64,000 nucleotides of DNA from Thermoanaerobaculia bacterium (GTDB taxonomy: Bacteria; Acidobacteriota; Thermoanaerobaculia; Gp7-AA8), in NCBI GenBank assembly GCA_041750915.1, contig JBGSYJ010000069.1, positions 4,946-68,945 of the forward strand, written 5' to 3'. The notes under the pieces are model-generated. The model saw only the letters and a list, made by a program, of their open reading frames with translations. It was not told the origin of the DNA and did no database searches. Positions within the stretch are counted from its first letter, which is position 1. Each line of letters begins with the position of its first letter. Below, piece by piece: positions 3,715 to 60,713 of the stretch. Position numbers and translations under genes: made by a program.

Positions 3715-3900
3715 GCATCCCGAGCCTGGTTGTGCGGGTGGGAGGGGCGAGGGATCTCCGGCGGTAGTACGTAGTCAATTCGTCACGGAAACAGTCGAGG
3801 TGCGGACTTCCTCGAGGCAACTATGTACCATCGCGAGAGATCCCTCGCCCCTCCCGCACACCCACGCTTGCTCGGGATGACACTTGGTTCATTTCTTCCG
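3715..3900. repeat. MITE-like palindromic element, type II, copy A (about 185 bp)
   Basis: The left arm GGCATCCCGAGCCTGGTTGTGCGGGTGGGAGGGGCGAGGGATCTCCGGCGGTAGTACGTAGT is the near-perfect reverse complement of the right arm ACTATGTACCATCGCGAGAGATCCCTCGCCCCTCCCGCACACCCACGCTTGCTCGGGATGACA. A second copy lies at 38290-38470. Confidence 0.6.
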
Positions 3901-7252: not shown

Positions 7253-7338
7253 TGTCATCCTGAGCGAAGCGAAGGATCCCCTCAGGACTCGCCTTTCGGC
7301 ATGCAATCAGGGGATCCTTCGCTTTGCTCAGGATGACA
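7253..7338. repeat. Type I palindromic element (GTCATCCTGAGCGAAGCGAAGGATCCCC hairpin), copy a
   Basis: Arms TGTCATCCTGAGCGAAGCGAAGGATCCCCT and AGGGGATCCTTCGCTTTGCTCAGGATGACA flank a 26-nt loop. Confidence 0.7.
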
Positions 7339-11397: not shown

Positions 11398-12080
11398 GAC
11401 CCTCTCCCCGCCAGCATGTTGGCCCGAGCGCGAATCGACGTTCGGGGAGAGGGTGGTCCGGCACCCTGCGCCGCGGGACTTGCGCATCGCGCATCTGTGA
11501 ATTGCAGGGTGACGGACCGGGTGAGGGGCAGCCTGGATCCAGCTACCCCTTCATGTATCCGAACTCCCGAGCTCGCGCCTCACATATCCGGAGAATTTCC
11601 GCCGCGCAGATTCCAGGATTTGCGACCAGCTCTTGGTTTTCGAATCGCAGCACTTTTATTCCGAGCTCCCCGAGACGTTTGTCACGCACCGCGTCATCGT
11701 GTCTGCCCTCCGCCGTGAAATGTGGATCGCCGTCGAGCTCGACGTTCACGCGCAATCGGGAGCAGTAGAAGTCGAGGATCATGTTGTCGATCCGATGCTG
11801 CGTTCTGAACTTCCAGCGATGGAGGTCCGGTTTCACAGCATGCCCCATGCAAGCTTCTCGGCATCGGTCAGGCTACGCCTGAGCTCGCGTTCGTTCGTCC
11901 GGTTGATCCCGCGTGTTTGATGCTTCATGGCGAGATCGTACCTCGGCTACCCCTCACCCGGCCCGTCACCCTGCAATCCACAACTGCCTGGGTGCGCGGG
12001 TCTCGCTTCGCAGGGTGCCGGACCACCCTCTCCCCGAATGATGATTCCTGCTTTAGACGACATCCTGGCGGGGAGAGGGT
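11398..12080. mobile_element. DUF559 cassette 1: a 5'-truncated DUF559 gene flanked by imperfect terminal inverted repeats of about 140 bp
   Basis: The left arm 11398-11535 is the reverse complement of the right arm 11945-12080. Both contain CCCTCTCCCCGCCAG...CGGGGAGAGGGTGGTCCGGCACCCTGCG...TTGCAGGGTGACGG.CCGGGTGAGGGG.AGCC. The cassette lies between the convergent 3' ends of dnaE and the amidohydrolase operon. Confidence 0.55.
11543..11848 (-). CDS. DUF559 endonuclease-domain protein (Vsr-like fold), N-terminally short
   Basis: FRTQHRIDNMILDFYCSRLRVNVELDGDPH...GIKVLRFENQELVANPGICAAEI is the DUF559 core (compare xxFRRQxxIGxYIVDFxC...ELDG), but the usual N-terminal region ahead of the DUF559 core (the stretch that reads ARELRRRQTPAERAMWSALRGRR in the full-length copy at 54567..54941) is missing. 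Confidence 0.7.
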   Translation of the reverse strand: MGHAVKPDLHRWKFRTQHRIDNMILDFYCSRLRVNVELDGDPHFTAEGRHDDAVRDKRLGELGIKVLRFENQELVANPGICAAEILRICEARAREFGYMKG

Positions 12081-28122: not shown

Positions 28123-28209
28123 GTCATCCTGAGCGAAGCGAAGGATCCCCCGAGCCTTGCACCATACAGCCAGTAGTAAGGGGATCCTTCGCTGCGCTCA
28201 GGATGACAC
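28123..28209. repeat. Type I palindromic element, copy b
   Basis: GTGTCATCCTGAGCGAAGCGAAGGATCCCCC...GGGGATCCTTCGCTGCGCTCAGGATGACAC. Confidence 0.7.
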
Positions 28210-29334: not shown

Positions 29335-29540
29335 GCTCTCATTCCCCTCTCCCCGTGTGAACGGGGAGAGGGGCAAGGGGAGAGGGGCCGCGCAAGCAAT
29401 TCGAATGTAGCCGACCGCAATGAGTGCCGCAAGCTCGCAACGCCCCTCTCCCGGCGCGCGACACTCCGCAAAGCCTTGAAGTCTGCGCGAACGACGCGCG
29501 CCACCCTCTCCCCGACTTCGCGGGGAGAGGGGAGCACGTC
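29335..29540. repeat. 210-bp multi-hairpin repeat (CCCTCTCCCC...GGGGAGAGGG units), copy 1
   Basis: Four GC hairpins. It matches 49590-49810 in inverted orientation over about 200 bp. Confidence 0.65.
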
Positions 29541-42559: not shown

Positions 42560-42949
42560 ATGGCCATACAGCCGAGGCTTGGAGAGCGGGAGCTCGATAT
42601 CATGCAGGTGCTCTGGGATACGGGAGGCGGAACCGTTTCGGATGTGCACGATCTGCTTCTGACCCGTCGAGGGAGTGTCGCTTATACGACAGTGCAGACG
42701 ATGCTCAACCGGCTCGAGGAGAAAGGGCACGTGCGGCGGGAGAAGGTCGGGCGTGCTTACTCGTACAAGCCGGTGATGAAGGAGCCGGCGGCGGCGAAAG
42801 TCGCCGTGAGGCGTGTGATCGATCGCTTTTTCGGGGGAGATCCGGCCGCGCTCGCGACTCACCTGGTTCAGGGTTCCGTTTCGGAGCGCGATCTCGTCCG
42901 CATCGAGGAGCTCATTGCATCGAGACGGGAAGCGGAGAAGAAGCGATGA
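42560..42949 (+). CDS. BlaI/MecI/CopY-family transcriptional repressor
   Basis: ELDIMQVLWDTGGGTVSDVHDLLL...YTTVQTMLNRLEEKGHV is a Penicillinase_R winged helix. Confidence 0.85.
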   Translation: MAIQPRLGERELDIMQVLWDTGGGTVSDVHDLLLTRRGSVAYTTVQTMLNRLEEKGHVRREKVGRAYSYKPVMKEPAAAKVAVRRVIDRFFGGDPAALATHLVQGSVSERDLVRIEELIASRREAEKKR

Positions 42950-44307
42950 GTGCTCTTCCTGCTCTCGCCGCCAATCTCTGGCTCGCAGGCGTTCCGGTGC
43001 TGCTCATCACAGCTGCCTCACTTGCGCTACTTCACAGAGCTCCGGCGCGGCTGCGTTATCTCGCGGCGCTCGCCGGATTCGTCGCCGCGATCGTCGTGCC
43101 GGTTCTGCTGACACGGGAGGCCGCTCCCATTGTCGTGAACGCCGCGGTGCCGGCGACCGCGACCGAATCGTTCGACTCTGCGCTCCTCGTCATTGGGCTC
43201 TGGTTTGCCGGCGCGCTTTTTCTGATTGGACGCGACGTGAGCGCGTATCGGCATCTGCGTCGCGAGGAGCAGGAGTGGATTCCGGCGGGTGAGCTAGGTG
43301 TGGACCCGTCGAAGTTCAGTGTCGTTCTGTCCGTCGGGGGAGCGCCGCGTACGCACGGCCTCCTGCGGCCCGTGATCGTGCTGCCGGAGGAATTGGTGCA
43401 TGCGGAAGCGGAGCTCGTGAGGCTAGTCCTCGCGCATGAGGAGTCGCATGCGCGCTGGCGCGATCCGATGATTCATTCCGCCATCCGCCTCGTGCGGTCG
43501 TTGCTGTGGTTCGCGCTGCCGCTGTGGCTCGCCGAGCGCCTCGTGATCCGGGAACGGGAGGCGGCGGCGGATGAAGCAGCGGTGGCAGCTGAAACGGGTG
43601 AGACGCGATCGCGGTACGCCGAGGCGCTGATCCGGTTCTGCCGCCTCGCTCCACGTCGATCCGCGCTCGCCGTGCAGCTCGGCGCGGCCGCAGATCTCGA
43701 GTACCGCGTGCGGCGGATTCTGCGCGCGTCGACGCGCGCAGGTTCTCTCGCAAGCGCTGTTGGTCTCCTCGGCGCAGGATTCTTTCTCTTCGCGTTCACG
43801 CCGCTGGCGGAGGTTCCTGCGGAAGTCGTCGTCGAGGTTGCAGACGTGCGGGCCGTTCAGAAGCTGGATAACGTGAAGGGTACGAGTGAAGTGCATGCGG
43901 TGATCCGTACAGAGTTCGAGAGTGCCATTGAGAAGAAGATTCGAGCCACGACGTCACGCGCGACTGGTTCGGCGAAGATCGACGACCCGGATGTTGTGGC
44001 GGTTGCGACGGTTGAGGCCATCGCATCCGATAACCCTGTTGCCGAAGGGGCTCCCTCACCCCTGACCCCTCTCCCGCCGGGAGAGGGGAAAGAGATTGCG
44101 CCTATCGTCGCTCCTGAGATCGACGATGAAGTGATCGTGATTCGTGACGTTCACAGGCATCGGCATGTGGATCGCCGCGACGGGAAACGGGGCGAAGAAG
44201 AAATCGCGAACGATACGGGGCGGAGCAGGCATCCGGTCGCACTCTTTCACCGCGGGGTGACCTCGCCCATCAAGCGATTCGTACGGCGGGTGAGGGGATC
44301 GTCGTGA
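42946..44307 (+). CDS. BlaR1-like M56 peptidase signal transducer without a recognisable C-terminal sensor domain
   Basis: Four-TM M56 domain with VLAHEESHARWRDP (HExxH). The C-terminal ~150 aa are low-complexity and include a translated copy of the 36-bp repeat (44056-44091, PSPLTPLPPGEG). Confidence 0.8.
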   Translation: MSALPALAANLWLAGVPVLLITAASLALLHRAPARLRYLAALAGFVAAIVVPVLLTREAAPIVVNAAVPATATESFDSALLVIGLWFAGALFLIGRDVSAYRHLRREEQEWIPAGELGVDPSKFSVVLSVGGAPRTHGLLRPVIVLPEELVHAEAELVRLVLAHEESHARWRDPMIHSAIRLVRSLLWFALPLWLAERLVIREREAAADEAAVAAETGETRSRYAEALIRFCRLAPRRSALAVQLGAAADLEYRVRRILRASTRAGSLASAVGLLGAGFFLFAFTPLAEVPAEVVVEVADVRAVQKLDNVKGTSEVHAVIRTEFESAIEKKIRATTSRATGSAKIDDPDVVAVATVEAIASDNPVAEGAPSPLTPLPPGEGKEIAPIVAPEIDDEVIVIRDVHRHRHVDRRDGKRGEEEIANDTGRSRHPVALFHRGVTSPIKRFVRRVRGSS

Positions 44308-49589: not shown

Positions 49590-49810
49590 TTGTGATTGCA
49601 GTGAGTAGCGACTTCCCTCTCCCCGCGAAGTCGGGGAGAGGGTGGCGCGCGGGAGTCGAGACGACTTTTCGGTTCCGACAGTTCCGCGCGCCGGGAGAGG
49701 GGCGTCCAGGGCTTGCAGCGACTTACTCCAGTTGGCAACATTGGAATGGCCTGCTCGGCCCCTCACCCCTTGCCCCTCTCCCCGTTCACACGGGGAGAGG
49801 GGAATCGCGC
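49590..49810. repeat. 210-bp multi-hairpin repeat, copy 2 (inverted relative to 29335-29540)
   Basis: The reverse complement aligns with copy 1 over about 200 bp, including both terminal hairpins. Confidence 0.65.
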
Positions 49811-53124: not shown

Positions 53125-54513
53125 ATGCCGGTTACCCCCTTCACGATCGAAGAGCTCGCCCGACTCAGCGATGAGGAAGCGCTCCGTAGCTCCTCCAATG
53201 CGGCCATTCTCAAAGCGCTCCGGTGGGTGCTCCGTTTCTTCTTCGTCGTTTCTCTCGTGGAGTGGCTGACCGCTTCGCAGGGCACCGGTCCAGCCGGAGT
53301 CGCAATCGTCAACCTGCTGGTCGTCGTCGGCCTTCTTTTGGGATTCAGACGACTGACGAGTCCGAAGAAAGGCCTGGGCAGAAGGCTGTCCTGGTTCGAG
53401 CCGCTGGCGCGTCTGCTGCGGGTTCAGTCGCGGGGAGTCGCCTCGACCTATCTCGTGCTTCAGTTGTGGATGGTGATGCTGTTTACTTCGGGAGGAAGCG
53501 GCATCATCCCCTGGCTGGTTCTGTTCCCGCAGATCGTTCTGTTGTTCCGCTTCGGACCGGCGGAACGCTTCGCGCTCCATGCGATCTTCATTCTTTCGGC
53601 GGTCGTCGGATGGTTGGCTCCGCTGATTCTCGATCTGTCGAACGCAAGGTTCGAACACGTCGTTTCCGCAACGGTTGCGAACGCCGTTGCGCTCGGCGTC
53701 GGCCTGTACATCGCCCGCCGCATCAGCCGCAGATTTCTCGCCGAGTGGAGAGAAGCGAGGGGCGGCGCGCGGGAGCAAATCCGGATGCGGCAGGAACTCG
53801 AGTCGGCCCGTGAGATCCAGCTGAGCATGCTCCCGCGGGAGACGCCGGAGCTCGAATGGGTCGATCTCGCGAGCGTCTCGATTCCCGCGACGGAAGTTGG
53901 CGGCGATTACTACGACTTCTTTTTCCCGTCTGCGAACCGGCTGGTTCTGGTCTCCGCGGACGTTGCCGGTCACGGTCTGGGAAGTGGTCTCGTGCTGTCG
54001 GGAGTTCGAAGCGGACTCGCGCTTCTCGCTGACGAGCTGGATCATCCGGAGCTCGTCATGGGCAGGCTCCACCGCATGCTCCGCAAGACGACGGGAACGC
54101 GGATGCTCGTCACGATGGCGCTCCTGTCGCTCGACCCGGAAACGATGGGGGCTCGATACGCGACGGCTGGGCATCCACCCCTGCTGATCCGGAGGGCAGG
54201 AACGGGGAAGGTGGACGAAGTCCTGCGAAGCTCCCTTCCACTCGGGGCTGCGATGTCGGCGGATTATGTCGTCGACGAGATTCCTTTCGGATCGGGCGAC
54301 GTATTCATCCTGCACACGGACGGAGTTTATGAGATGCGCAACAACGCGGGAGATGCGTACGGGCTCGACCGGCTCGCGGCGGTTCTCGGGGAGCAGGACG
54401 ACTCGACGACCGCACGGGAAGTGCGGGACGCGATCCTCCGTGACGTGTTCGCGTTCCGTGACCATGCGCCGCAGGAGGATGACCTGACGCTGGTCGTGGC
54501 GAAGGTGCGATAA
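53125..54513 (+). CDS. Membrane-anchored PP2C-type Ser/Thr phosphatase (SpoIIE/RsbU family)
   Basis: About six transmembrane helices, then EIQLSMLP...GGDYYDF...VADVAGHGLGSG...HTDGVYE SpoIIE motifs. Confidence 0.8.
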   Translation: MPVTPFTIEELARLSDEEALRSSSNAAILKALRWVLRFFFVVSLVEWLTASQGTGPAGVAIVNLLVVVGLLLGFRRLTSPKKGLGRRLSWFEPLARLLRVQSRGVASTYLVLQLWMVMLFTSGGSGIIPWLVLFPQIVLLFRFGPAERFALHAIFILSAVVGWLAPLILDLSNARFEHVVSATVANAVALGVGLYIARRISRRFLAEWREARGGAREQIRMRQELESAREIQLSMLPRETPELEWVDLASVSIPATEVGGDYYDFFFPSANRLVLVSADVAGHGLGSGLVLSGVRSGLALLADELDHPELVMGRLHRMLRKTTGTRMLVTMALLSLDPETMGARYATAGHPPLLIRRAGTGKVDEVLRSSLPLGAAMSADYVVDEIPFGSGDVFILHTDGVYEMRNNAGDAYGLDRLAAVLGEQDDSTTAREVRDAILRDVFAFRDHAPQEDDLTLVVAKVR

Positions 54514-54543
54514 GCAGTTCTGAGTACTGCCAGGGCGGCGGTG

Positions 54544-54999
54544 CCCCTCTCCCGGCGGGAGAGGGGTCAGGGGTGAGGGAGCTTCTTCAGCGCCTCAACC
54601 AAACGCTTGATCCGATCGAGCACGATTTCCGGATTTACGAGCAGCTCTTCATTCTCGATTCGAGTCAGGGTGTAACCGCGATCCTGAAGGTACTGCGTGC
54701 GATGCGCGTCGGACGATTGAACGGACAGATCAAAGTGACCGTCGCCGTCGAGCTCGATGATGAGCCTAACTTCTTCGCAGCAGAAATCAACGATGTAATG
54801 TCCGATCTCGAATTGTCTCTGAAACTTCAGATTCATAAAGCGGCGTCCGCGGAGTGCGGACCACATCGCGCGTTCTGCCGGGGTCTGTCGCCTTCGAAGT
54901 TCGCGGGCTCTTTGGACGAGCTTGTGAGATTCGTGATGCATGAGCGTGATCGTACCTCGGGTTCCCTCACCCCTGACCCCTCTCCCGCCGGGAGAGGGG
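54544..54999. mobile_element. DUF559 cassette 2: full-length DUF559 gene bounded by perfect 36-bp terminal inverted repeats
   Basis: The left end CCCCTCTCCCGGCGGGAGAGGGGTCAGGGGTGAGGG (54544-54579) is the exact reverse complement of the right end CCCTCACCCCTGACCCCTCTCCCGCCGGGAGAGGGG (54964-54999). The gene's stop codon and last three codons lie inside the left repeat. Confidence 0.6.
54567..54941 (-). CDS. DUF559 endonuclease-domain protein (Vsr-like/PD-(D/E)xK)
   Basis: ARELRRRQTPAERAMWSALRGRRFMNLKFQRQFEIGHYIVDFCCEEVRLIIELDGDGH is a full-length DUF559. Confidence 0.8.
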   Translation of the reverse strand: MHHESHKLVQRARELRRRQTPAERAMWSALRGRRFMNLKFQRQFEIGHYIVDFCCEEVRLIIELDGDGHFDLSVQSSDAHRTQYLQDRGYTLTRIENEELLVNPEIVLDRIKRLVEALKKLPHP

Positions 55000-55073
55000 A
55001 ACCGCCACCCTGCTGTGCACCGTGATAGGATTCAAACCTTCAATCTCCAAATGCTGAGAGGCCATCACGCGAC

Positions 55074-58000
55074 ATGATCGGCACGATTCTCAATAACCGC
55101 TACGAGATCATCGGTGAGCTCGGTCGCGGTGGGATGGGTGTGGTTTACCGCGCCAGGGACCCTCTGCTCAACCGCGAGGTTGCGATCAAGCTCGTTCCCC
55201 CGATGCTGCTCAATCCGCAGTCAGAGGAGCGATTCAACCGCGAGGCGCAGCTCGTCGCACAGATGGACCATCCGTCCATCGTTCCGATCTTCGACATCGG
55301 ACAGCACGATGGCTCGATGTTCTTCCTGATGCCTGTGGTGAAGGGCGACAACCTGCGGGCGTTTCTCCGCGAAAAGCCTCGGACTCTCGGATCCATCATC
55401 GACATTGCCATCCAGGCGGCAGAGGGTCTCGAATACAGCCACGCGAGAGGAGTGATTCACCGCGACATCAAGCCGGAGAACATCATGGTCTCCGAGGAAG
55501 AGGGCGCGCTGCGGGTTCGCATTATGGATTTCGGCCTCGCGAAAGCGGCGTCGGACCAGAGGCTGACGCGAACGGGCACGCTCGTTGGAACCGTCTCGTA
55601 TTTCAGCCCCGAGCAGGTCAAGGCCGAGGAGGTCGACAACCGCTCCGATATCTACTCTCTCGGGACGGTGATCTATGAAGCGATCGCAGGAGAGCCTCCG
55701 TTCACGGGCGAGATGCAGTCGGTGCTTTACCGCGCCGTCCACGAGAACCCGCGTTCGCTGATCGATCGCGGCGCGGAGATCTCGCAATCGCTCGAAGACG
55801 TGATCATGCGTACGCTCGCTAAAGAGCCGTCCAGACGGTATGCAACGGCGGGCGATCTCGTCGAGGCGCTCAGACGGTACAGGTTGACCCTCCGCGACGA
55901 TGACATGGTCAAGGCCGTAGGAATGTCCTCGGTCATGACGGCACAGATGGTCCGTCCGTCGTCGGCTCCGTTCATCGGAAGAGAGAAAGAGATTGCCGAG
56001 CTGCAGCGCCGCCTGAACGCAGCCGTCGACGGAGAATGCCAGTTCGCAGTGATCGCAGGAGAGCCGGGCATCGGCAAGACACGGCTCGTCGAAGAGATCG
56101 AGAGTCTCGCCCGCGCGCGGAAGATCACAGTTCTTCACGGGCGTTTCATGGAGCAGGATCGCACCTTCGCGTATCAGGGCTTCGGCGAGGCCATTCAGGA
56201 GTTCTTCCGTTCGCCGGACACCGGTGGATCGGGAGCGCGGCCGGACGTATCGGATCTCGCACCCGATCTGATCGCACTGTTTCCGGTTCTCAGTGAGATC
56301 AGCGAACTGCGCAAAACATCGAGCGGCGATCAGCGGCAGGAACCGGCCGAATCGCGAAAAGCCGAAGACCGCACGTGGGTGTTCGAGCTGCTCGCGCGGA
56401 CGATGGTGCGCATCGGAGGCGGGAAAGCGCTCGTTCTCGTGTTTGAGAATCTCCACTCGGCCGAGCTCTCGCTCGATGCGCTTCAGTACATCGTGCGCCG
56501 CCTCGCTCCGACGCCGACGCTCATCATCGGAACGTTTCGTCAGACAGAGATCGACAAGCGCCACCCGCTGGTCAAGATGCTCGACACATTCGCTGACGAT
56601 CCGAGATTCTCGTCGACTTACCTCGGTCCTCTGACTCCGTCGGAACACCGCAGCTTCATTCAGACGATGGTCGGTGGCGCTTCTCTCGGAGCAGGGCTGG
56701 CCGAGCGACTCTATGAAGCGACCGAAGCGAATCCCTTCTTCACGCGCGAGCTCGTCCGCTCTCTGATCGACTCCGGCGGAATTGCGAGGGCGGAGACGGG
56801 AGAGTGGACGCTGTCGGGGGAAATGGCGATTTCGTCCGACGCGCTGCCTGCAACGATTCAGCAGACGGTCGAGAAGCGGATCGAGAGGCTGCCGGAAGAG
56901 ATGCGGGACGTGCTCTCCACGGCTTCTGTCATGGGCCGCAGCTTCGACTTTCGCGACCTCGAGTCACTCGCAGACTCGAAGGGAGGCCTCGACGACATCG
57001 TGGATCGCCTCGTCTACGAGGGATTGATCGAAGAGGAGCGCGAGTCGCGGGGAGACAGGCTCGCGTTCACGAGCGGCATCGTCCGGGATGTTCTCTACAG
57101 CGCGCTGTCACGCCGGAAGAGAAAGTCTCTGCATCGCAGGTATGCCGAGCTGCTCGAAAAGCGGAACAGCGGAAGACTGGATCGAGTCTATCCGCAGCTC
57201 GTTCACCACTACTCCGAGGGGGATGTTCCGGACAAGACGGTCGAGTACGGAATGATTCTCGCGCGCAAGTCTCTTGACGCATTCAGTTCCGAGGAGGCGG
57301 TGCAGACGCTTCGTACGGTCGTCGACTTCCTTGATGATGACGAGTGGTCGCCTCCGCCGGGCACCGTAGGCGAGGCGCGCATGCTGCTCGCTTCGGCGCT
57401 TCGGCAGCAGGGACAAATCGACGCAGCGTTGCGGGAAGCTGAGGCAGCTGTCCAGAGCTTCGAAAAGGACAAAGATGCGGATCGCGCGTCGGCTGCGATG
57501 CTGCTCGCTGCGGAAGCCGCATGGCAGGGCCGCCGTGTCGAAGAAACAAGGAACTGGCTCGATCGCGGAGTTGCGGCAGCGAGAGGTGCGACAGCAGGAA
57601 ATGTTCTCGCCGACCTGCTGTCCCTTGCAGCCACGGTCGCAAACCTGCGGGGCGAGTACAGCAGGGCGAAGGAGCTTCTCGATGAGCTCGAACGAATCCG
57701 TCCGGCAATCTCCCTGGAGCAGCAGATCGACATCCCGGTCGGTGGGCGGTTGATGGTGAGTCTCGGAAATCCCGCGCCCGCGAAAGAGCCGGCAGCGATC
57801 GAGCTTCTGGAAGAGTCCGAAATTCTCGGCCTCGCTTTCGAAAGGCTCGTGACGACTGATGATCGGGGCCACCTGGTCGCCTCTCTCGGCGAAAGCTGGG
57901 ATGTGATCGACGATGGCCGGGCGATGAAACTGCGGTTGCGCGAGGGAGTGCGCTTTCACGACGGTTCCCCGCTTACCGCCGAGGCGGTGAGGGATTCAAT

Positions 58001-60713
58001 CGAAGGGGCTGTGAAGTCTCAGTTGCGCGAGACCGCAGCCTGGTCGGTGATTGAAGGATTCGAGGAGTTCCGGGAGGGAGCTTCGAGCCACATCTCCGGA
58101 ATTCTCATTCAGGGAGAGGGTGACCTCGAGATCCGGCTGAGAGAACCCCTGCCGATTTATCCCGCGCTCCTGACGGATACGAAGACCGGAATCTCACACG
58201 TAACAGTCGACGAAAAGGGAGTCCGTTCGGTGGCCGGTACGGGTGCGTTCCGCATCGTCCAGCACGATCAGGACCGCATCGTGATAGAGAAGAACGCGGA
58301 CTACTGGATGCCCGGGAGGCCGCGCCTCGACGCGATCGAGTTTCGCGTGGAGAGAAACGCCTCGTCGCGCGCCGCGCAGATGCGCTCCGGCGAGATCGAT
58401 GTCGGGCGCGAGCTCCTGACCAACGACCTCGACGAGCTTCTTCGCGACCCCCGTTTCCGCAACGGTCTCCAGGAGGTTCCGAACAAGATCACCTATTTCG
58501 CGGTGTTCAATCACTCGACGCCTGCGGGAGGAAATGAAAGGCTTCGCCGCGCGCTGTGCGGAGTTCTTCCCGTGCACGATCTCGTCTGGGGCTCACTGGG
58601 ACGCCTCGCCCAGCCGACGACGACACTGATTCCACCGGGGATCCTGGGCCACGATCCGGGCCGCCGCCGGCATCCGATGTCGCGGGACCAGGCGGCCGAA
58701 CTGCTCACCGCCAGTGGACTCGAACTGCCCCTCACGCTGCGGGCGGCAGTCCAGCCCCTCTACCAGGACCGGTATCGCGCTTTGCTCGACGCCATTGTCG
58801 AGATCTGGTCGAGCCTTGGAGTGACGATCGAGATCGTGACGCCTGATCTCGAGTCCTTCATGGCCTCATACCGCGATGACGAAGACATCGACATCCGGAT
58901 CATGCGTTGGGCTGCCGACTATGACGATCCGGACGATTTCTCGTACGGTTTGTTCCATTCCGGAACCGGGCTCGTATCGCGTTACTTCTCGACGCCGGCG
59001 ATCGACCAATTGACCGAAGAGGGGAGGACGGAACGACGGCCTGCAGCCCGAGAGGCGATCTATCGACGGTTCGAGCAGGCGATCTCCGAGTCCGGATCGG
59101 TTCTCCCGTTTTTCCACGAAATCGATTACCGACTGGCCAACCCCTACGTGCGGGGGCTGCAGATCGTCAGCACGTCTCCATTCGTGAATTACGCCGAGCT
59201 CGGAAAATCGTCGCACGCGCCCGTCGTGGCAACGAGTCGCGCGGGCGGAATGATCGTTGTACCGATCGCCGGGGCGATGCACGAGATCGAGCCAACTCGC
59301 GTGACGACTGTCGAAATGAGCGAGACGGTGCCCTGCTTTTACGAGACTTTGACGAAGGTGGGCGAGGGCGCCCGCGTCATCCCGTGGCTTGCCAGCTCGG
59401 TAACACCCGAGGACGGAGGAATGCGTTACCGGATACGACTCCGTGAGGACGTTCGTTTCCATGACGGCCGGCGTATGAGTGCGCGCGATGTCCGTTACAC
59501 GTTCGAGCGTCTGTTCACTCTTTCAGGGAGCGTTGCCGGATGGTTCTTCACGGCGATTAAGGGCGCGAAGGAACTGATGGCAGGACGGACCCGAGAGCTC
59601 GAGGGTCTGCAAATCGTTTCCTCACACGAGCTCGTCATGGAGCTGGAGCACCCGCTCTCGTTTTTTCCCACGCTGCTCTCGCACCTGAACTCGTCGATCG
59701 TTCCAGAAGGGACTGGGGAAATCGGTACGTCGTGGAAGACTGGCGTAGCGGGCACAGGACCATTTCGGCTGGTGGCTCTCGATCCGTCCGGGAGACTGGA
59801 GCTGGAGAAGAATCCGTTTTACTGGCGTGATGGATACCCTAAGAGCGATGCTCTCGTTTTCCAGTACGGGTTGGGAAGCGACGAGATCAGACATCGATTT
59901 CAGGCAGGGGAGCTATCCATCGCCAGCGACCTCAGGCCGGCGGACGTCGAACTGTTCCGGCACGACCCGGAGTTCGCTCCGGGGTACCGGGAGACCCCTC
60001 GTCTTTCAATTTACTTCGCCGCATTCAACCGGAACCGAGGCCCACTCGCTGACCCTGAACTGCGCCGCAGTCTGGTGAGTATGATCGATGTCCCCGGAAT
60101 CGTGGGGCGCCAGCTGGGTCGCCTGGCGATTCCTGCGCATGGAATCATTCCGCCCGGGCTGCTCGGATTCAATACAGCGCAGCCCGGTCGCGCTGCTATG
60201 TCTCGTTCACGCGGAGGAGAGAATCGCGACATCGAGTTGAAAACCGTCGTGCATCCGATCTTCTTCGAACAGTACGCAGGAGTCGGGAAAGAACTGCTCG
60301 CAGCGTTCGCGGAGAAGGGGATTCGAATACAGATTACGGCGAAAACGATGAGCGAATATACAGACGCCCGTATCGTCGCTGAAGCGGATCTCAAGATAGG
60401 ACGCTGGTTCGCGGACTATCCCGACGCTGATACGTTTACACACGGTCTGCTTCATCGAAAAGCCGGTTACATCGGCGATTCCTGCGGATCTGTGGAACTC
60501 GATCGCCTCACAGAGCGGGGCAGAGAGGAATCCGATCCCGGACGACGTCATGCAATCTATCAGGAAATCGAGCAGATGGTTGTGCGCGATGCGCTCATGC
60601 TGCCGCTGTTTCACGAGCAGATCTACCGGCTGGCGCGCCCCGAAGTCGAAGGGCTCGCTTTGAATCTCTCCACGCCCGAGGTGCAGTACGATGAGTTGCG
60701 AGTACGACGTTGA
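55074..60713 (+). CDS. Giant signalling protein: Ser/Thr protein kinase + STAND/AAA_16 ATPase + TPR + two SBP_bac_5 (peptide-binding-protein-like) domains
   Basis: Kinase: GRGGMGVVYRA, VAIK, HRDIKPEN, DFGLA. NTPase: GEPGIGKTRL (Walker A). SBP5 number 1: WDVIDDGRAMKLRLREGVRFHDGSPLTAEAV...GTGAFRIV...NADYW. SBP5 number 2: MRYRIRLREDVRFHDGRRMSARDV...GTGPFRLV...NPFYW. No transmembrane segment seen. Confidence 0.85.
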   Translation: MIGTILNNRYEIIGELGRGGMGVVYRARDPLLNREVAIKLVPPMLLNPQSEERFNREAQLVAQMDHPSIVPIFDIGQHDGSMFFLMPVVKGDNLRAFLREKPRTLGSIIDIAIQAAEGLEYSHARGVIHRDIKPENIMVSEEEGALRVRIMDFGLAKAASDQRLTRTGTLVGTVSYFSPEQVKAEEVDNRSDIYSLGTVIYEAIAGEPPFTGEMQSVLYRAVHENPRSLIDRGAEISQSLEDVIMRTLAKEPSRRYATAGDLVEALRRYRLTLRDDDMVKAVGMSSVMTAQMVRPSSAPFIGREKEIAELQRRLNAAVDGECQFAVIAGEPGIGKTRLVEEIESLARARKITVLHGRFMEQDRTFAYQGFGEAIQEFFRSPDTGGSGARPDVSDLAPDLIALFPVLSEISELRKTSSGDQRQEPAESRKAEDRTWVFELLARTMVRIGGGKALVLVFENLHSAELSLDALQYIVRRLAPTPTLIIGTFRQTEIDKRHPLVKMLDTFADDPRFSSTYLGPLTPSEHRSFIQTMVGGASLGAGLAERLYEATEANPFFTRELVRSLIDSGGIARAETGEWTLSGEMAISSDALPATIQQTVEKRIERLPEEMRDVLSTASVMGRSFDFRDLESLADSKGGLDDIVDRLVYEGLIEEERESRGDRLAFTSGIVRDVLYSALSRRKRKSLHRRYAELLEKRNSGRLDRVYPQLVHHYSEGDVPDKTVEYGMILARKSLDAFSSEEAVQTLRTVVDFLDDDEWSPPPGTVGEARMLLASALRQQGQIDAALREAEAAVQSFEKDKDADRASAAMLLAAEAAWQGRRVEETRNWLDRGVAAARGATAGNVLADLLSLAATVANLRGEYSRAKELLDELERIRPAISLEQQIDIPVGGRLMVSLGNPAPAKEPAAIELLEESEILGLAFERLVTTDDRGHLVASLGESWDVIDDGRAMKLRLREGVRFHDGSPLTAEAVRDSIEGAVKSQLRETAAWSVIEGFEEFREGASSHISGILIQGEGDLEIRLREPLPIYPALLTDTKTGISHVTVDEKGVRSVAGTGAFRIVQHDQDRIVIEKNADYWMPGRPRLDAIEFRVERNASSRAAQMRSGEIDVGRELLTNDLDELLRDPRFRNGLQEVPNKITYFAVFNHSTPAGGNERLRRALCGVLPVHDLVWGSLGRLAQPTTTLIPPGILGHDPGRRRHPMSRDQAAELLTASGLELPLTLRAAVQPLYQDRYRALLDAIVEIWSSLGVTIEIVTPDLESFMASYRDDEDIDIRIMRWAADYDDPDDFSYGLFHSGTGLVSRYFSTPAIDQLTEEGRTERRPAAREAIYRRFEQAISESGSVLPFFHEIDYRLANPYVRGLQIVSTSPFVNYAELGKSSHAPVVATSRAGGMIVVPIAGAMHEIEPTRVTTVEMSETVPCFYETLTKVGEGARVIPWLASSVTPEDGGMRYRIRLREDVRFHDGRRMSARDVRYTFERLFTLSGSVAGWFFTAIKGAKELMAGRTRELEGLQIVSSHELVMELEHPLSFFPTLLSHLNSSIVPEGTGEIGTSWKTGVAGTGPFRLVALDPSGRLELEKNPFYWRDGYPKSDALVFQYGLGSDEIRHRFQAGELSIASDLRPADVELFRHDPEFAPGYRETPRLSIYFAAFNRNRGPLADPELRRSLVSMIDVPGIVGRQLGRLAIPAHGIIPPGLLGFNTAQPGRAAMSRSRGGENRDIELKTVVHPIFFEQYAGVGKELLAAFAEKGIRIQITAKTMSEYTDARIVAEADLKIGRWFADYPDADTFTHGLLHRKAGYIGDSCGSVELDRLTERGREESDPGRRHAIYQEIEQMVVRDALMLPLFHEQIYRLARPEVEGLALNLSTPEVQYDELRVRR

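What the first reader, a model, noticed from the sequence alone, without database searches (positions are those of the whole stretch)
54544..54999. Second DUF559 cassette: full-length gene bounded by perfect 36-bp terminal inverted repeats that encode its stop codon
The left end CCCCTCTCCCGGCGGGAGAGGGGTCAGGGGTGAGGG and the right end CCCTCACCCCTGACCCCTCTCCCGCCGGGAGAGGGG are exact reverse complements, and each is itself hairpin-forming. The 124-aa DUF559 ORF ends (...KKLPHP-stop) inside the left repeat. A solo copy of the same 36-mer lies at 44056-44091, embedded in frame in the 3' part of the blaR1-like gene. The TIR family shares CCCCTCACCC and CCCTCTCCC motifs with cassette 1. Two independent TIR-bounded DUF559 units within 43 kb strongly suggest that DUF559 genes in this genome travel as MITE-like cassettes.
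Basis: seen in the sequence. Interest (0 to 1): 0.7.

Follow-up and report, generated by a model that had tools for sequence, protein, structure and literature searches.

The report
Nuclease gene nested in triplex-motif repeats
A small gene for a DNA-cutting enzyme (DUF559) sits exactly between two mirror-image copies of a short repeat already known from E. coli (BoxC / "triplex motif"), and the same package recurs across many bacteria, which gives this long-orphaned repeat family its first candidate protein partner.

Summary
Exact 36-mers at 54544-54579 and 54964-54999 bracket a 124-aa DUF559 ORF whose stop codon lies in the left copy. A third copy sits in frame in an M56 gene at 44053-44088, not 44056-44091.

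The "TIRs" are not private transposon ends. They belong to the known intrastrand-triplex-motif / BoxC / TMECO repeat family. Their 23-nt core occurs exactly in more than 114 genome stretches from over 10 phyla, almost always without DUF559.

The link to DUF559 is nevertheless strong and general:
- In 80 unrelated metagenomic DUF559 loci, such hairpins are 19-fold enriched at the gene ends (49/66 upstream, 43/66 downstream; 1/61 and 0/78 for neighbouring genes).
- Homologous cassettes in unrelated contexts share homology that stops at the outer arm edges, with no target-site duplication.
- Arms are 100% identical where the genes are about 70% identical.
- At the yqeY-dnaG junction of related Sphingomonadales, DUF559 and GIY-YIG cassettes alternate.

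Best reading: a selfish nuclease cassette resembling a homing endonuclease (DUF559 is a Vsr/EDxHD-type nuclease), riding in triplex-motif palindromes. It is not a MITE-like transposon. The mechanism is inferred, because no empty site was found and no activity is known. I found no report of this link in the searchable literature.

The parts
54531..54580 (+). Left arm of the palindrome, at the 3' side of the gene. It holds the 36-nt triplex-motif unit 54544-54579: Y block CCCCTCTCCC, loop GGC, R block GGGAGAGGGG, spacer TCA, mirror R block GGGGTGAGGG. It also has 13 further nt of inverted repeat on the outside.
   Evidence: Matches the relaxed triplex-motif pattern.
54567..54941 (-). DUF559 (Vsr/EDxHD-type PD-(D/E)XK nuclease) ORF, 124 aa. 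The family-invariant residues E63, D65, H69 and D78 are present. The stop codon lies in the TCA spacer of the left arm.
54948..54960 (-). Conserved 13-nt leader CCGAGGTACGATC, 6-7 nt upstream of the ATG. It is shared only with cassette 1 and with the L115-L117 cassette. Possible ribosome-binding site or -10-like element; its function is untested.
   Evidence: No sigma-70 consensus was found.
54963..55012 (-). Right arm of the palindrome, at the 5' side of the gene. It holds the inverted 36-nt unit 54964-54999.
44053..44088 (-). Solo copy of the same 36-nt unit, in frame inside the C-terminal region of a Peptidase_M56 (BlaR1-like) ORF (42946..44307).
11399..11533 (.). Cassette 1, left composite arm. 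It runs: Y/R hairpin with a 34-nt loop, then a second stem-loop, then the R tail GGGTGAGGGG.
11543..11928 (-). Cassette 1 DUF559 gene, split by a frameshift. The N-terminal 31 aa are in one frame and the remaining 101 aa in another (Pfam DUF559 E=5.5e-19, profile positions 30-108). It has the same CCGAGGTACGATC leader, at 11934-11946.
11945..12080 (.). Cassette 1, right composite arm, inverted relative to the left one.
29343..29532 (+). ORF-less composite element of about 190 nt, built from the same modules: hairpin plus mirror tail at one end, a second Y/R hairpin at the other.
49613..49803 (-). Second copy of that 190-nt ORF-less element, in the opposite orientation. It is 88% identical overall; the hairpin modules are identical and the spacers have diverged.

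Best explanation
SHOWN
- The feature is a discrete unit of about 460-480 bp.
- It is a full-length DUF559 gene sitting at the centre of a palindrome made of two inverted copies of a triplex-motif (TM / BoxC / TMECO-type) repeat. DUF559 is a PD-(D/E)XK nuclease of the Vsr / EDxHD type.
- Each repeat consists of a pyrimidine-block/purine-block hairpin followed by a mirror-repeat purine tail.
- The same architecture, with co-varying arm sequences, surrounds about half to three quarters of related DUF559 genes in many phyla.
- The unit occurs in unrelated genomic contexts with boundaries at the outer arm edges.

INFERRED (most likely mechanism)
- The cassette is a selfish nuclease gene of the free-standing homing-endonuclease kind.
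- The nuclease makes a break at or near TM-type sequences or cassette-free alleles.
- Recombinational repair from a cassette-bearing copy then installs gene plus arms, a gene-conversion event rather than transposition.
- The arms are an independently abundant repeat family. The cassette uses them as recognition or homology sequence, and probably also for expression: a purine tail lies directly upstream of the ATG, and the stop codon lies in the arm.
- Copies then decay, as in frameshifted cassette 1, or are replaced.
For: Family
- Pfam DUF559 E=4.6e-35.
- A profile of the family hits PDB 3HRL at E=1e-37, and the catalytic domain of the proven homing endonuclease I-Bth0305I (3R3P) at E=3.6e-5.
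- Invariant E/D/H/D residues are present.
- Steczkiewicz 2012 places Vsr, DUF559 and I-Bth0305I in one clade.
- A DUF559 protein damages DNA in vivo in Caulobacter.

General association
- 32/66 metagenomic DUF559 genes have flanking inverted repeats, against 0/66 shuffled controls.
- Y/R hairpins occur at 4.43 per kb near the gene ends and 0.23 per kb elsewhere.
- 49/66 upstream and 43/66 downstream zones carry one, against 1/61 and 0/78 for other genes on the same contigs.

Discrete unit in different contexts, without target-site duplication
- Window versus L115: coding DNA 70% identical, arms 72/72 identical.
- L135 versus L161: coding DNA 81% identical, with a different TM variant as arms.

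Turnover at one site
- At yqeY-dnaG in Sphingomonadales with 85-100% identical YqeY, two loci carry DUF559 in TM arms. Three carry a GIY-YIG gene in a different inverted repeat.

Decay
- Cassette 1 is frameshifted.

Arms independent of the gene
- The 23-mer occurs in more than 114 stretches from over 10 phyla, and about 117 of 120 occurrences lack DUF559.
- The tail is a mirror repeat of the R block in 234 cases against 28.

E. coli
- The stop codon of ycjD lies in a degenerate TM-like hairpin, and TMECO #9 lies 165 nt away.
- ycjD is present in only 3378 of 5426 genomes.
Against: - No filled/empty allele pair was found. SpoIIE orthologue contigs lose synteny or end. All five yqeY-dnaG loci are occupied.
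- No nuclease activity or target is known for any short DUF559 protein.
- The protein is only 124 aa, with no separate DNA-binding domain such as the NUMODs of I-Bth0305I.
- The arms offer only 36-135 bp of homology.
- Some DUF559 genes sit at the same position in several samples, which looks like vertical inheritance.
- TM copies persist in E. coli lineages that lack ycjD (1-18 places).
- Holder et al. found no stable triplex in vivo.
Confidence: 0.45

Rival explanations
1. MITE-like / TIR transposon. The 36-50-nt arms are terminal inverted repeats recognised by a transposase, either DUF559 itself or one acting in trans. The ORF-less 190-nt elements would be its non-autonomous derivatives.
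For: - Perfect inverted arms, and a discrete unit in unrelated contexts.
- ORF-less elements built from the same modules lie at 29343-29532 and 49613-49803.
- Two cassettes occur within 43 kb.
Against: - No target-site duplications at any of four cassette junction pairs.
- DUF559 is a Vsr-type hydrolytic nuclease with no known strand-transfer chemistry.
- No transposase is adjacent.
- The arms are mostly solo single units across phyla, which a TIR transposon does not produce.
- The arms stay identical while the gene diverges to 70% DNA identity.
Confidence: 0.12
2. RAYT-like partnership. DUF559 is the nuclease that generates, disperses or maintains the TM repeat population, as REP-associated tyrosine transposases do for REP/REPIN elements. 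Its gene is flanked by the repeats that it services.
For: - The architecture matches REPtrons: a gene between inverted copies of the genome's own repeat family.
- E. coli TMECO counts from Holder Table S7, combined with ycjD distribution (PMC12817139; phylogroup assignment from my own knowledge): ycjD-bearing phylogroups A/B1/C have 13-30, while B2 has 1-2, F 6-7, E 10-11 and D 13.
- Direct sample of 60 genomes: ycjD+ median 18 TM places, ycjD- median 5.
- TMECO #9 abuts ycjD.
Against: - The correlation is confounded by phylogeny (one or two events), and ycjD- genomes still hold up to 18 TM places.
- A hydrolytic nuclease cannot by itself copy and paste repeats.
- There are two DUF559 copies in 64 kb, one of them decayed, unlike single-copy RAYTs.
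- 8-kb blocks around 117 of 120 TM copies lack DUF559, although genome-wide co-occurrence could not be tested.
Confidence: 0.18
3. An ordinary host gene with structured flanks. DUF559 would be a repair or restriction-related nuclease (Vsr-like). The arms would be expression or insulation elements (ribosome-binding purine tail, terminator or stabiliser hairpins, RNase III stem) and would have nothing to do with mobility.
For: - A purine-rich tail lies 0-25 nt upstream of most start codons, and the stop codon often lies inside the downstream arm.
- If both arms are transcribed, they form a 49-bp stem.
- Some DUF559 genes lie next to methyltransferase or type I restriction-modification genes.
- Positions are stable across samples.
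Against: - TMECO/PIT motifs showed no promoter or terminator activity in E. coli (Holder, citing its ref. 41).
- No terminator or promoter consensus is present here.
- The same units occur solo and inside coding regions.
- This view does not explain identical arms on 70%-identical genes, unit boundaries in unrelated contexts, alternation with GIY-YIG cassettes, or the frameshifted copy.
- There is no Vsr Pfam hit and no dcm-type neighbour.
Confidence: 0.15
4. Chance pairing of abundant terminator-like hairpins around a gene.
For: The repeat family is widespread, and several related units lie in the window.
Against: - No match to the 36-mer in 100 shuffles.
- Only about 6 TM-type loci occur in 64 kb, yet both DUF559 genes are bracketed on both sides.
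- Other gene ends carry such hairpins in 1 of 139 zones, against 92 of 132 for DUF559.
Confidence: 0.01

Closest known systems
Intrastrand triplex motif repeats, also called TMECO, BoxC or PIT (Holder et al. 2015, NAR, PMC4666352; Hoyne et al. 2000 and Bachellier et al. 1999 as cited there)
   Same: - Same architecture and nearly the same sequence: C-rich block, 3-6-nt loop, GGGAGAGGG-type block, 3-nt spacer, GGGTGAGGG-type mirror block.
- Multi-copy, about 36 nt, and often found as inverted pairs.
- Loops are variable and stems conserved.
- The mirror-tail rule holds across sequence variants.
   Different: - The blocks here are 10 nt, not 9, so the strict TMECO regular expression is missed by register.
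- One copy lies inside a coding region, whereas TMECO in E. coli K-12 is always intergenic.
- The paper reported proteobacterial genomes only, no protein partner and no link to mobile elements. Here the core is found in over 10 phyla and in viral contigs, and it is tied to DUF559.
DUF559 / YcjD family (PF04480; PDB 3HRL; E. coli ycjD b1289)
   Same: - Above-threshold Pfam match and conserved catalytic residues.
- The E. coli ycjD stop codon also lies in a TM-like hairpin, and a full TMECO lies 165 nt away.
   Different: - The score is below the NCBIfam equivalog cut-off for YcjD (91.6 against 218 bits), so this is a family member and not an orthologue.
- ycjD is not bracketed by a complete inverted TM pair.
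EDxHD homing endonucleases (I-Bth0305I, PMC3239194) and free-standing homing endonuclease genes of phages
   Same: - Vsr-like catalytic fold.
- A small selfish nuclease gene in intergenic DNA, with no target-site duplication.
- Alternation with a GIY-YIG gene at one site. Site-sharing by unrelated free-standing endonuclease genes in T4-type phages is cited here from my own knowledge.
   Different: - No NUMOD or other DNA-binding module, and not located in an intron or intein.
- Chromosomal, and nested in a palindrome made of a genomic repeat family.
- Homing is not demonstrated.
REP/REPIN-RAYT systems (Bertels & Rainey 2011, PMC3116915; PMC3337134)
   Same: - A gene flanked by inverted copies of a short hairpin repeat that is dispersed through the genome.
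- ORF-less doublets also occur.
   Different: - The enzyme is a PD-(D/E)XK nuclease, not an HUH Y1 transposase.
- The repeat core is shared across phyla instead of being lineage-specific.
- The gene is not single-copy here.
MITEs and in-frame palindromic elements (Correia/NEMIS, Rickettsia RPE). Cited from my own knowledge.
   Same: - Short elements with inverted ends.
- The solo copy is inserted in frame in a protein-coding gene, as RPEs are.
   Different: - No target-site duplication and no parent IS or transposase.
- The arms themselves carry triplex-type mirror symmetry.

Membership tests
Triplex motif repeats (TMECO/BoxC, Holder 2015) | Pattern CCCTCNCCC N3-6 GGGNGAGGG N3 GGGNGAGGG | tested here: inconclusive
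   The strict regular expression gives no hit in the window. With loop 2 relaxed to 1-6 nt (the ITxF search range), it hits exactly the three 36-mers. Read as 10-nt blocks, the spacer is 3 nt (TCA).
Triplex motif repeats (TMECO/BoxC, Holder 2015) | The third block is a mirror repeat of the purine block (purine-motif triads G.G:C, A.A:T, T.A:T) | tested here: met
   GGGAGAGGGG and GGGGTGAGGG mirror each other with an A-to-T change. Across all loci with asymmetric blocks, the tail is a mirror repeat in 234 cases and a direct repeat in 28.
Triplex motif repeats (TMECO/BoxC, Holder 2015) | Multi-copy, dispersed, loops variable and stems conserved | tested here: met
   Three exact copies plus related units in 64 kb. 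More than 114 stretches in other genomes, with variable loops.
Triplex motif repeats (TMECO/BoxC, Holder 2015) | Forms an intrastrand triplex in vitro | not testable with these tools
   Only the Watson-Crick hairpin could be folded.
DUF559 (PF04480) | Profile match above the gathering score | tested here: met
   120.2 bits against a cut-off of 20.6, covering profile positions 2-108 of 109.
DUF559 (PF04480) | Conserved catalytic-type residues (E-x-D ... H ... D) | tested here: met
   E63, D65, H69 and D78 are invariant in a 30-sequence alignment that includes the window protein.
YcjD equivalog (NCBIfam NF007294) | Score above the equivalog cut-off | tested here: not met
   91.6 bits against a cut-off of 218.
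EDxHD homing endonucleases (I-Bth0305I) | Vsr-like catalytic domain | tested here: met
   The family profile hits 3R3P at E=3.6e-5.
EDxHD homing endonucleases (I-Bth0305I) | N-terminal NUMOD/HTH DNA-binding region; residence in an intron or intein | tested here: not met
   The protein is 124 aa with only the DUF559 domain. The gene is free-standing and intergenic.
EDxHD homing endonucleases (I-Bth0305I) | Cleaves the cassette-free allele and is copied in by repair | not testable with these tools
   No empty allele was found.
MITE / TIR transposon | Terminal inverted repeats | tested here: met
   50-nt arms, 96% complementary.
MITE / TIR transposon | Target-site duplication | tested here: not met
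   There are no direct repeats at the junctions in the window, L115, L135 or L161.
MITE / TIR transposon | A cognate transposase family | tested here: not met
   The only ORF is a Vsr-type nuclease. The neighbours are a SpoIIE phosphatase and a Ser/Thr kinase.
REP-RAYT (REPtron) | A gene flanked by inverted copies of the dispersed repeat | tested here: met
REP-RAYT (REPtron) | The gene encodes an HUH Y1 (IS200/IS605-like) transposase, single copy | tested here: not met
   The gene is DUF559, and there are two copies in 64 kb.
Vsr very-short-patch repair endonuclease | Vsr Pfam family (PF03852) and linkage to a dcm-type methyltransferase | tested here: not met
   There is no Vsr hit at E<=0.01, and no methyltransferase among the adjacent ORFs.
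Intrinsic terminator | GC-rich hairpin followed by a T run | tested here: not met
   No terminator-like sites in 54400-55150.

The most novel reading that the evidence does not exclude
DUF559 proteins are the missing enzymatic partner of the triplex-motif / BoxC repeat family. They would be TM-specific nucleases, recognising either structure or sequence, whose breaks drive the spread, homogenisation and cross-phylum conservation of these repeats, and also the genome instability seen around them. That would make DUF559-TM a second, mechanistically different repeat-plus-enzyme symbiosis alongside REPIN-RAYT. Small GIY-YIG genes, with their own inverted repeats, would be a parallel third case.
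Probability: 0.2. Interest if true: 0.85.

Novelty: new variant of a known kind. Interest (0 to 1): 0.62.

Why it matters
BoxC / PIT / TMECO repeats have been known in E. coli and many other bacteria for decades. They still have no known origin, function or protein partner; the only documented effect is local genome instability. DUF559 is one of the large "unknown function" nuclease families.

A tight and statistically overwhelming physical association between the two would link both orphans. It holds from Acidobacteriota to E. coli ycjD. It makes the questions directly testable in E. coli K-12 by purifying YcjD and offering it TM DNA.

It also suggests that bacterial chromosomes, not only phages, carry free-standing nuclease cassettes of the homing-endonuclease kind. 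DUF559 and GIY-YIG cassettes appear to compete for the same intergenic sites.

On the practical side, the arms explain the odd proline/glycine-rich C-terminal tails on many annotated DUF559 proteins. They may also contribute to the many metagenome contig breaks at such loci.

Tried and rejected
- Empty site for the window locus. I fetched contigs of the four closest SpoIIE orthologues (54-69% identity). Three end within 45-140 nt of the gene, in another repeat and without a TM unit. The others have lost synteny, so there was no clean filled/empty pair.
- Source contig. The 100%-identical protein P0001 is not on record for contig look-up, and its cluster carries no name.
- Identical DUF559 protein in several contexts. 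P0045 and P0081 gave only orthologous contexts.
- Flanking genes of the L115/L116 cassette have no homologue in the window.
- All five yqeY-dnaG loci are occupied, so no empty site was found there either.
- Rfam gave only sub-threshold chance matches.
- Promoter and terminator consensus scans found nothing. The idea that TACGAT is a -10 box for a leaderless mRNA remains speculation.
- PADLOC gave no defence-system match.
- Literature searches for DUF559, ycjD, COG2852/PF04480 and TMECO/BoxC found no paper linking the gene to the repeats.
- The E. coli correlation between ycjD and TM number is real but confounded by phylogeny, so I do not treat it as proof.
Full report
**1. The observation**

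The 36-mer CCCCTCTCCCGGCGGGAGAGGGGTCAGGGGTGAGGG occurs exactly three times in the window: at 54544-54579 (+), 54964-54999 (-) and 44053-44088 (-). No match appeared in 100 dinucleotide-preserving shuffles, even with three mismatches allowed.

The palindrome is larger than reported. Arms 54531-54580 and 54963-55012 are 50 nt and 96% complementary. Each 36-mer holds a 10-bp hairpin with a 3-nt loop.

The ORF 54567..54941 (-) encodes 124 aa and matches Pfam DUF559 at E=4.6e-35. Its TGA stop is the complement of the TCA spacer inside the left 36-mer. Only 22 nt separate its ATG from the right arm.

The solo copy is in frame in a Peptidase_M56 (BlaR1-like) ORF.

Cassette 1 (11399-12080) is real. 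Its arms are long and composite: 88 nt at 82% plus 43 nt at 88%. Its DUF559 gene is split by a frameshift.

**2. What the arms are**

A literature search on the sequence blocks led to Holder et al. 2015 (PMC4666352). The unit is an "intrastrand triplex motif" (TMECO, formerly BoxC or PIT). It consists of a C-rich block, a 3-6-nt loop, a GGGAGAGGG-type block, a 3-nt spacer and a GGGTGAGGG-type block.

That paper reports the following:
- 23 copies in E. coli K-12, and 3610 copies in 262 proteobacterial genomes;
- frequent inverted pairs;
- triplex formation in vitro but not detectably in vivo;
- no promoter or terminator activity;
- no link to mobile elements;
- raised local genome variability;
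- no protein partner.

The window's unit has 10-nt rather than 9-nt blocks. It therefore misses the strict regular expression by register, but it fits the relaxed one.

The purine tail is a mirror repeat of the hairpin's purine block. Across all fetched loci this mirror rule holds for many different sequence variants: 234 mirror cases against 28 direct, among asymmetric blocks. That is covariation in favour of the triplex-type architecture.

By record titles, these come from at least ten phyla. The phyla are:
- Chloroflexota
- Acidobacteriota
- Planctomycetota
- Verrucomicrobiota
- Pseudomonadota (Alpha-, Beta- and Gammaproteobacteria)
- Armatimonadota
- Bipolaricaulota
- Patescibacteria
- Bacillota
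- Actinomycetota
- others

The flanks are unrelated and the loops vary. The core also occurs in 15 IMG/VR viral contigs. Only about 3 of 120 occurrences have DUF559 next to them. So the arms are not private ends of a DUF559 transposon.

**3. What the gene is**

The family profile matches PDB 3HRL (a Neisseria DUF559 protein) at E=1e-37. It also matches the catalytic domain of the homing endonuclease I-Bth0305I (3R3P) at E=3.6e-5.

The invariant E63, D65, H69 and D78 are present.

Published classifications put Vsr, DUF559 and I-Bth0305I in one PD-(D/E)XK clade. A DUF559-containing protein causes SOS induction in Caulobacter.

There is no Vsr Pfam hit and no methyltransferase neighbour. The score lies below the YcjD equivalog cut-off.

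**4. The association is general and specific**

Eighty DUF559 loci were retrieved from metagenomes by a protein pattern alone. The results:
- 32 of 66 evaluable genes have a flanking inverted repeat scoring at least 14, against none of 66 shuffled controls.
- Pyrimidine-run/purine-run hairpins occur at 4.43 per kb within 150 nt of the gene ends, and at 0.23 per kb elsewhere on the same contigs. That is a 19-fold enrichment, P about 5e-108.
- 49/66 genes have such a hairpin upstream, 43/66 downstream and 32/66 on both sides.
- Other genes on the same contigs have one in 1/61 upstream and 0/78 downstream zones.

Typically the purine tail lies 0-25 nt upstream of the start codon. The ORF runs into the downstream arm, which explains the PSP/PLSP...GERG tails on many homologues. 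The arrangement with tails facing the gene is commoner than the one with tails facing outward, but both occur.

**5. A discrete unit, and evidence of movement**

The closest relative is P0002 (65% aa identity), found in three soil metagenome contigs in a different gene context. It carries the identical 36-mers on both sides and the same leader CCGAGGTACGATC. Coding DNA is 70% identical, while the arms are identical at 72 of 72 positions.

Homology between the two loci begins and ends at the outer edges of the arms. The same holds for L135 versus L161. There the genes are 81% identical and the arms are a different TM variant (CCTCCCCC/GGGGGAGG/GGTGGGGG). No direct repeats flank any of these units.

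The 13-nt leader occurs nowhere else in about 1.2 Mb of fetched DNA, apart from cassettes 1 and 2 and L115-L117.

The strongest sign of turnover comes from the yqeY-dnaG junction of related Sphingomonadales, whose YqeY proteins are 85-100% identical:
- Two loci carry DUF559 in TM-type arms.
- Three carry a GIY-YIG gene in a different 31-33-nt inverted repeat.
- Both cassette types fill the space from just after the yqeY stop codon to the dnaG start codon.

I found no truly empty site, either there or downstream of the SpoIIE orthologues.

**6. The E. coli anchor**

In K-12, the ycjD (DUF559) stop codon lies in the loop of a degenerate TM-like hairpin. TMECO #9 lies 165 nt further on, and a 23-nt duplicate of the ycjD 3' end lies between them.

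ycjD is present in only 3378 of 5426 complete genomes. In the others, the eefRABCD island occupies the site.

Holder's Table S7 gives these TMECO counts. Phylogroup assignment is from my own knowledge plus PMC12817139.

| Phylogroup | ycjD | TMECO copies |
|---|---|---|
| A / B1 / C | present | 13-30 |
| B2 | absent | 1-2 |
| F | absent | 6-7 |
| E | absent | 10-11 |
| D | absent | 13 |

A direct sample of 60 genomes gave a median of 18 TM places in ycjD+ genomes and 5 in ycjD- genomes. The ranges were 11-27 and 1-18.

The trend is clear (Mann-Whitney p about 1e-10). It rests on very few evolutionary events, however, and TM copies clearly persist without ycjD.

**7. Mechanism**

Shown:
- the anatomy;
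- the family assignment;
- the generality and specificity of the association;
- the unit boundaries;
- the absence of target-site duplications;
- the independence of the arms;
- the decayed copy;
- the alternation with GIY-YIG cassettes.

Inferred: the cassette behaves like a free-standing homing-endonuclease gene. It would be installed by break-induced recombination and not by transposition. The TM arms would serve as recognition or homology sequence, and would supply translation signals.

I put this at about 0.45. The rivals are:
- a RAYT-like role in maintaining TM repeats (0.18);
- an ordinary host gene with structured flanks (0.15);
- a TIR transposon (0.12);
- chance (0.01).

The first two readings are not mutually exclusive.

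**8. Novelty and caveats**

The repeat family and the protein family are both known. I did not find their association, or the cassette architecture, in the searchable library. Subscription-only literature was not covered.

The survey loci were chosen by similarity to the window protein, so they represent one DUF559 clade. Start codons in the survey are predicted. No activity data exist for any short DUF559 protein.

Noticed in passing
window, pairs at 28128/28185, 46447/46502, 47676/47732, 52888/52944 and 63153/63209; solo copies at 7259, 38192 and 44331: A second, more abundant repeat family, GTGTCATCCTGAGCG(A/C/T)AGCGAAGGATCCCC, has about 13 copies. Most are inverted doublets about 56 nt apart (REPIN-like). 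The same motif ends the SpoIIE orthologue contigs L201-L203. It resembles the inverted repeats that flank GIY-YIG genes in Sphingomonadales (GTCCCGAGCGAAGTCGAGGG). No GIY-YIG gene was found in the window.
   Followed up: partly
L231, L232, L233 versus L211, L234 (yqeY-dnaG junction): Small GIY-YIG genes (about 100-129 aa) nested in their own 31-33-nt inverted repeats occupy exactly the site that DUF559 cassettes occupy in sister lineages. The dnaG start ATGACCCTCTCCCCC is itself a TM-like pyrimidine block.
   Followed up: partly
window 29343-29532 and 49613-49803: Two copies of a 190-nt ORF-less composite element in opposite orientation, built from TM modules. The hairpins are identical and the spacers about 70% identical. 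They could be empty targets or deletion derivatives of cassettes.
   Followed up: partly
window 3732-3860: A separate inverted repeat of about 31 bp, GTGCGGGTGGGAGGGGCGAGGGATCTC ... GAGATCCCTCGCCCCTCCCGCACACCCAC, with a spacer of about 65 nt. The purine-rich arm comes first.
   Followed up: no
L071 2230-2760; L090 4520-6790: TM units are inserted in frame inside other protein-coding genes: an HsdR-like nuclease domain and a DnaE-like polymerase. This resembles the solo copy in the window's M56 gene and is reminiscent of Rickettsia palindromic elements.
   Followed up: no
L118 (E. coli K-12 1351200-1351420), L199, L200: TMECO #9 sits at the breakpoint where the eefRABCD efflux island replaces ycjD in B2 and O157 strains. 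A 23-nt duplicate of the ycjD 3' end lies between TMECO #9 and ycjD, which suggests a remnant of a former second copy.
   Followed up: partly
L216-L230 (IMG/VR contigs): The exact 23-nt TM core occurs in 15 viral contigs, none with DUF559. Many carry the same G.A-mismatched hairpin variant (CCCCTCGCCC / GGGAGAGGGG) that dominates in E. coli.
   Followed up: no
window 55074-60713: A 1879-aa ORF combines a Ser/Thr kinase domain, an AAA_16 ATPase, TPR repeats and two SBP_bac_5 solute-binding domains. This is an unusual architecture, and it lies immediately downstream of the cassette.
   Followed up: no
L132 243-534 and 853-1114: Two DUF559 paralogues lie side by side on one 1.1-kb metagenome contig.
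   Followed up: no
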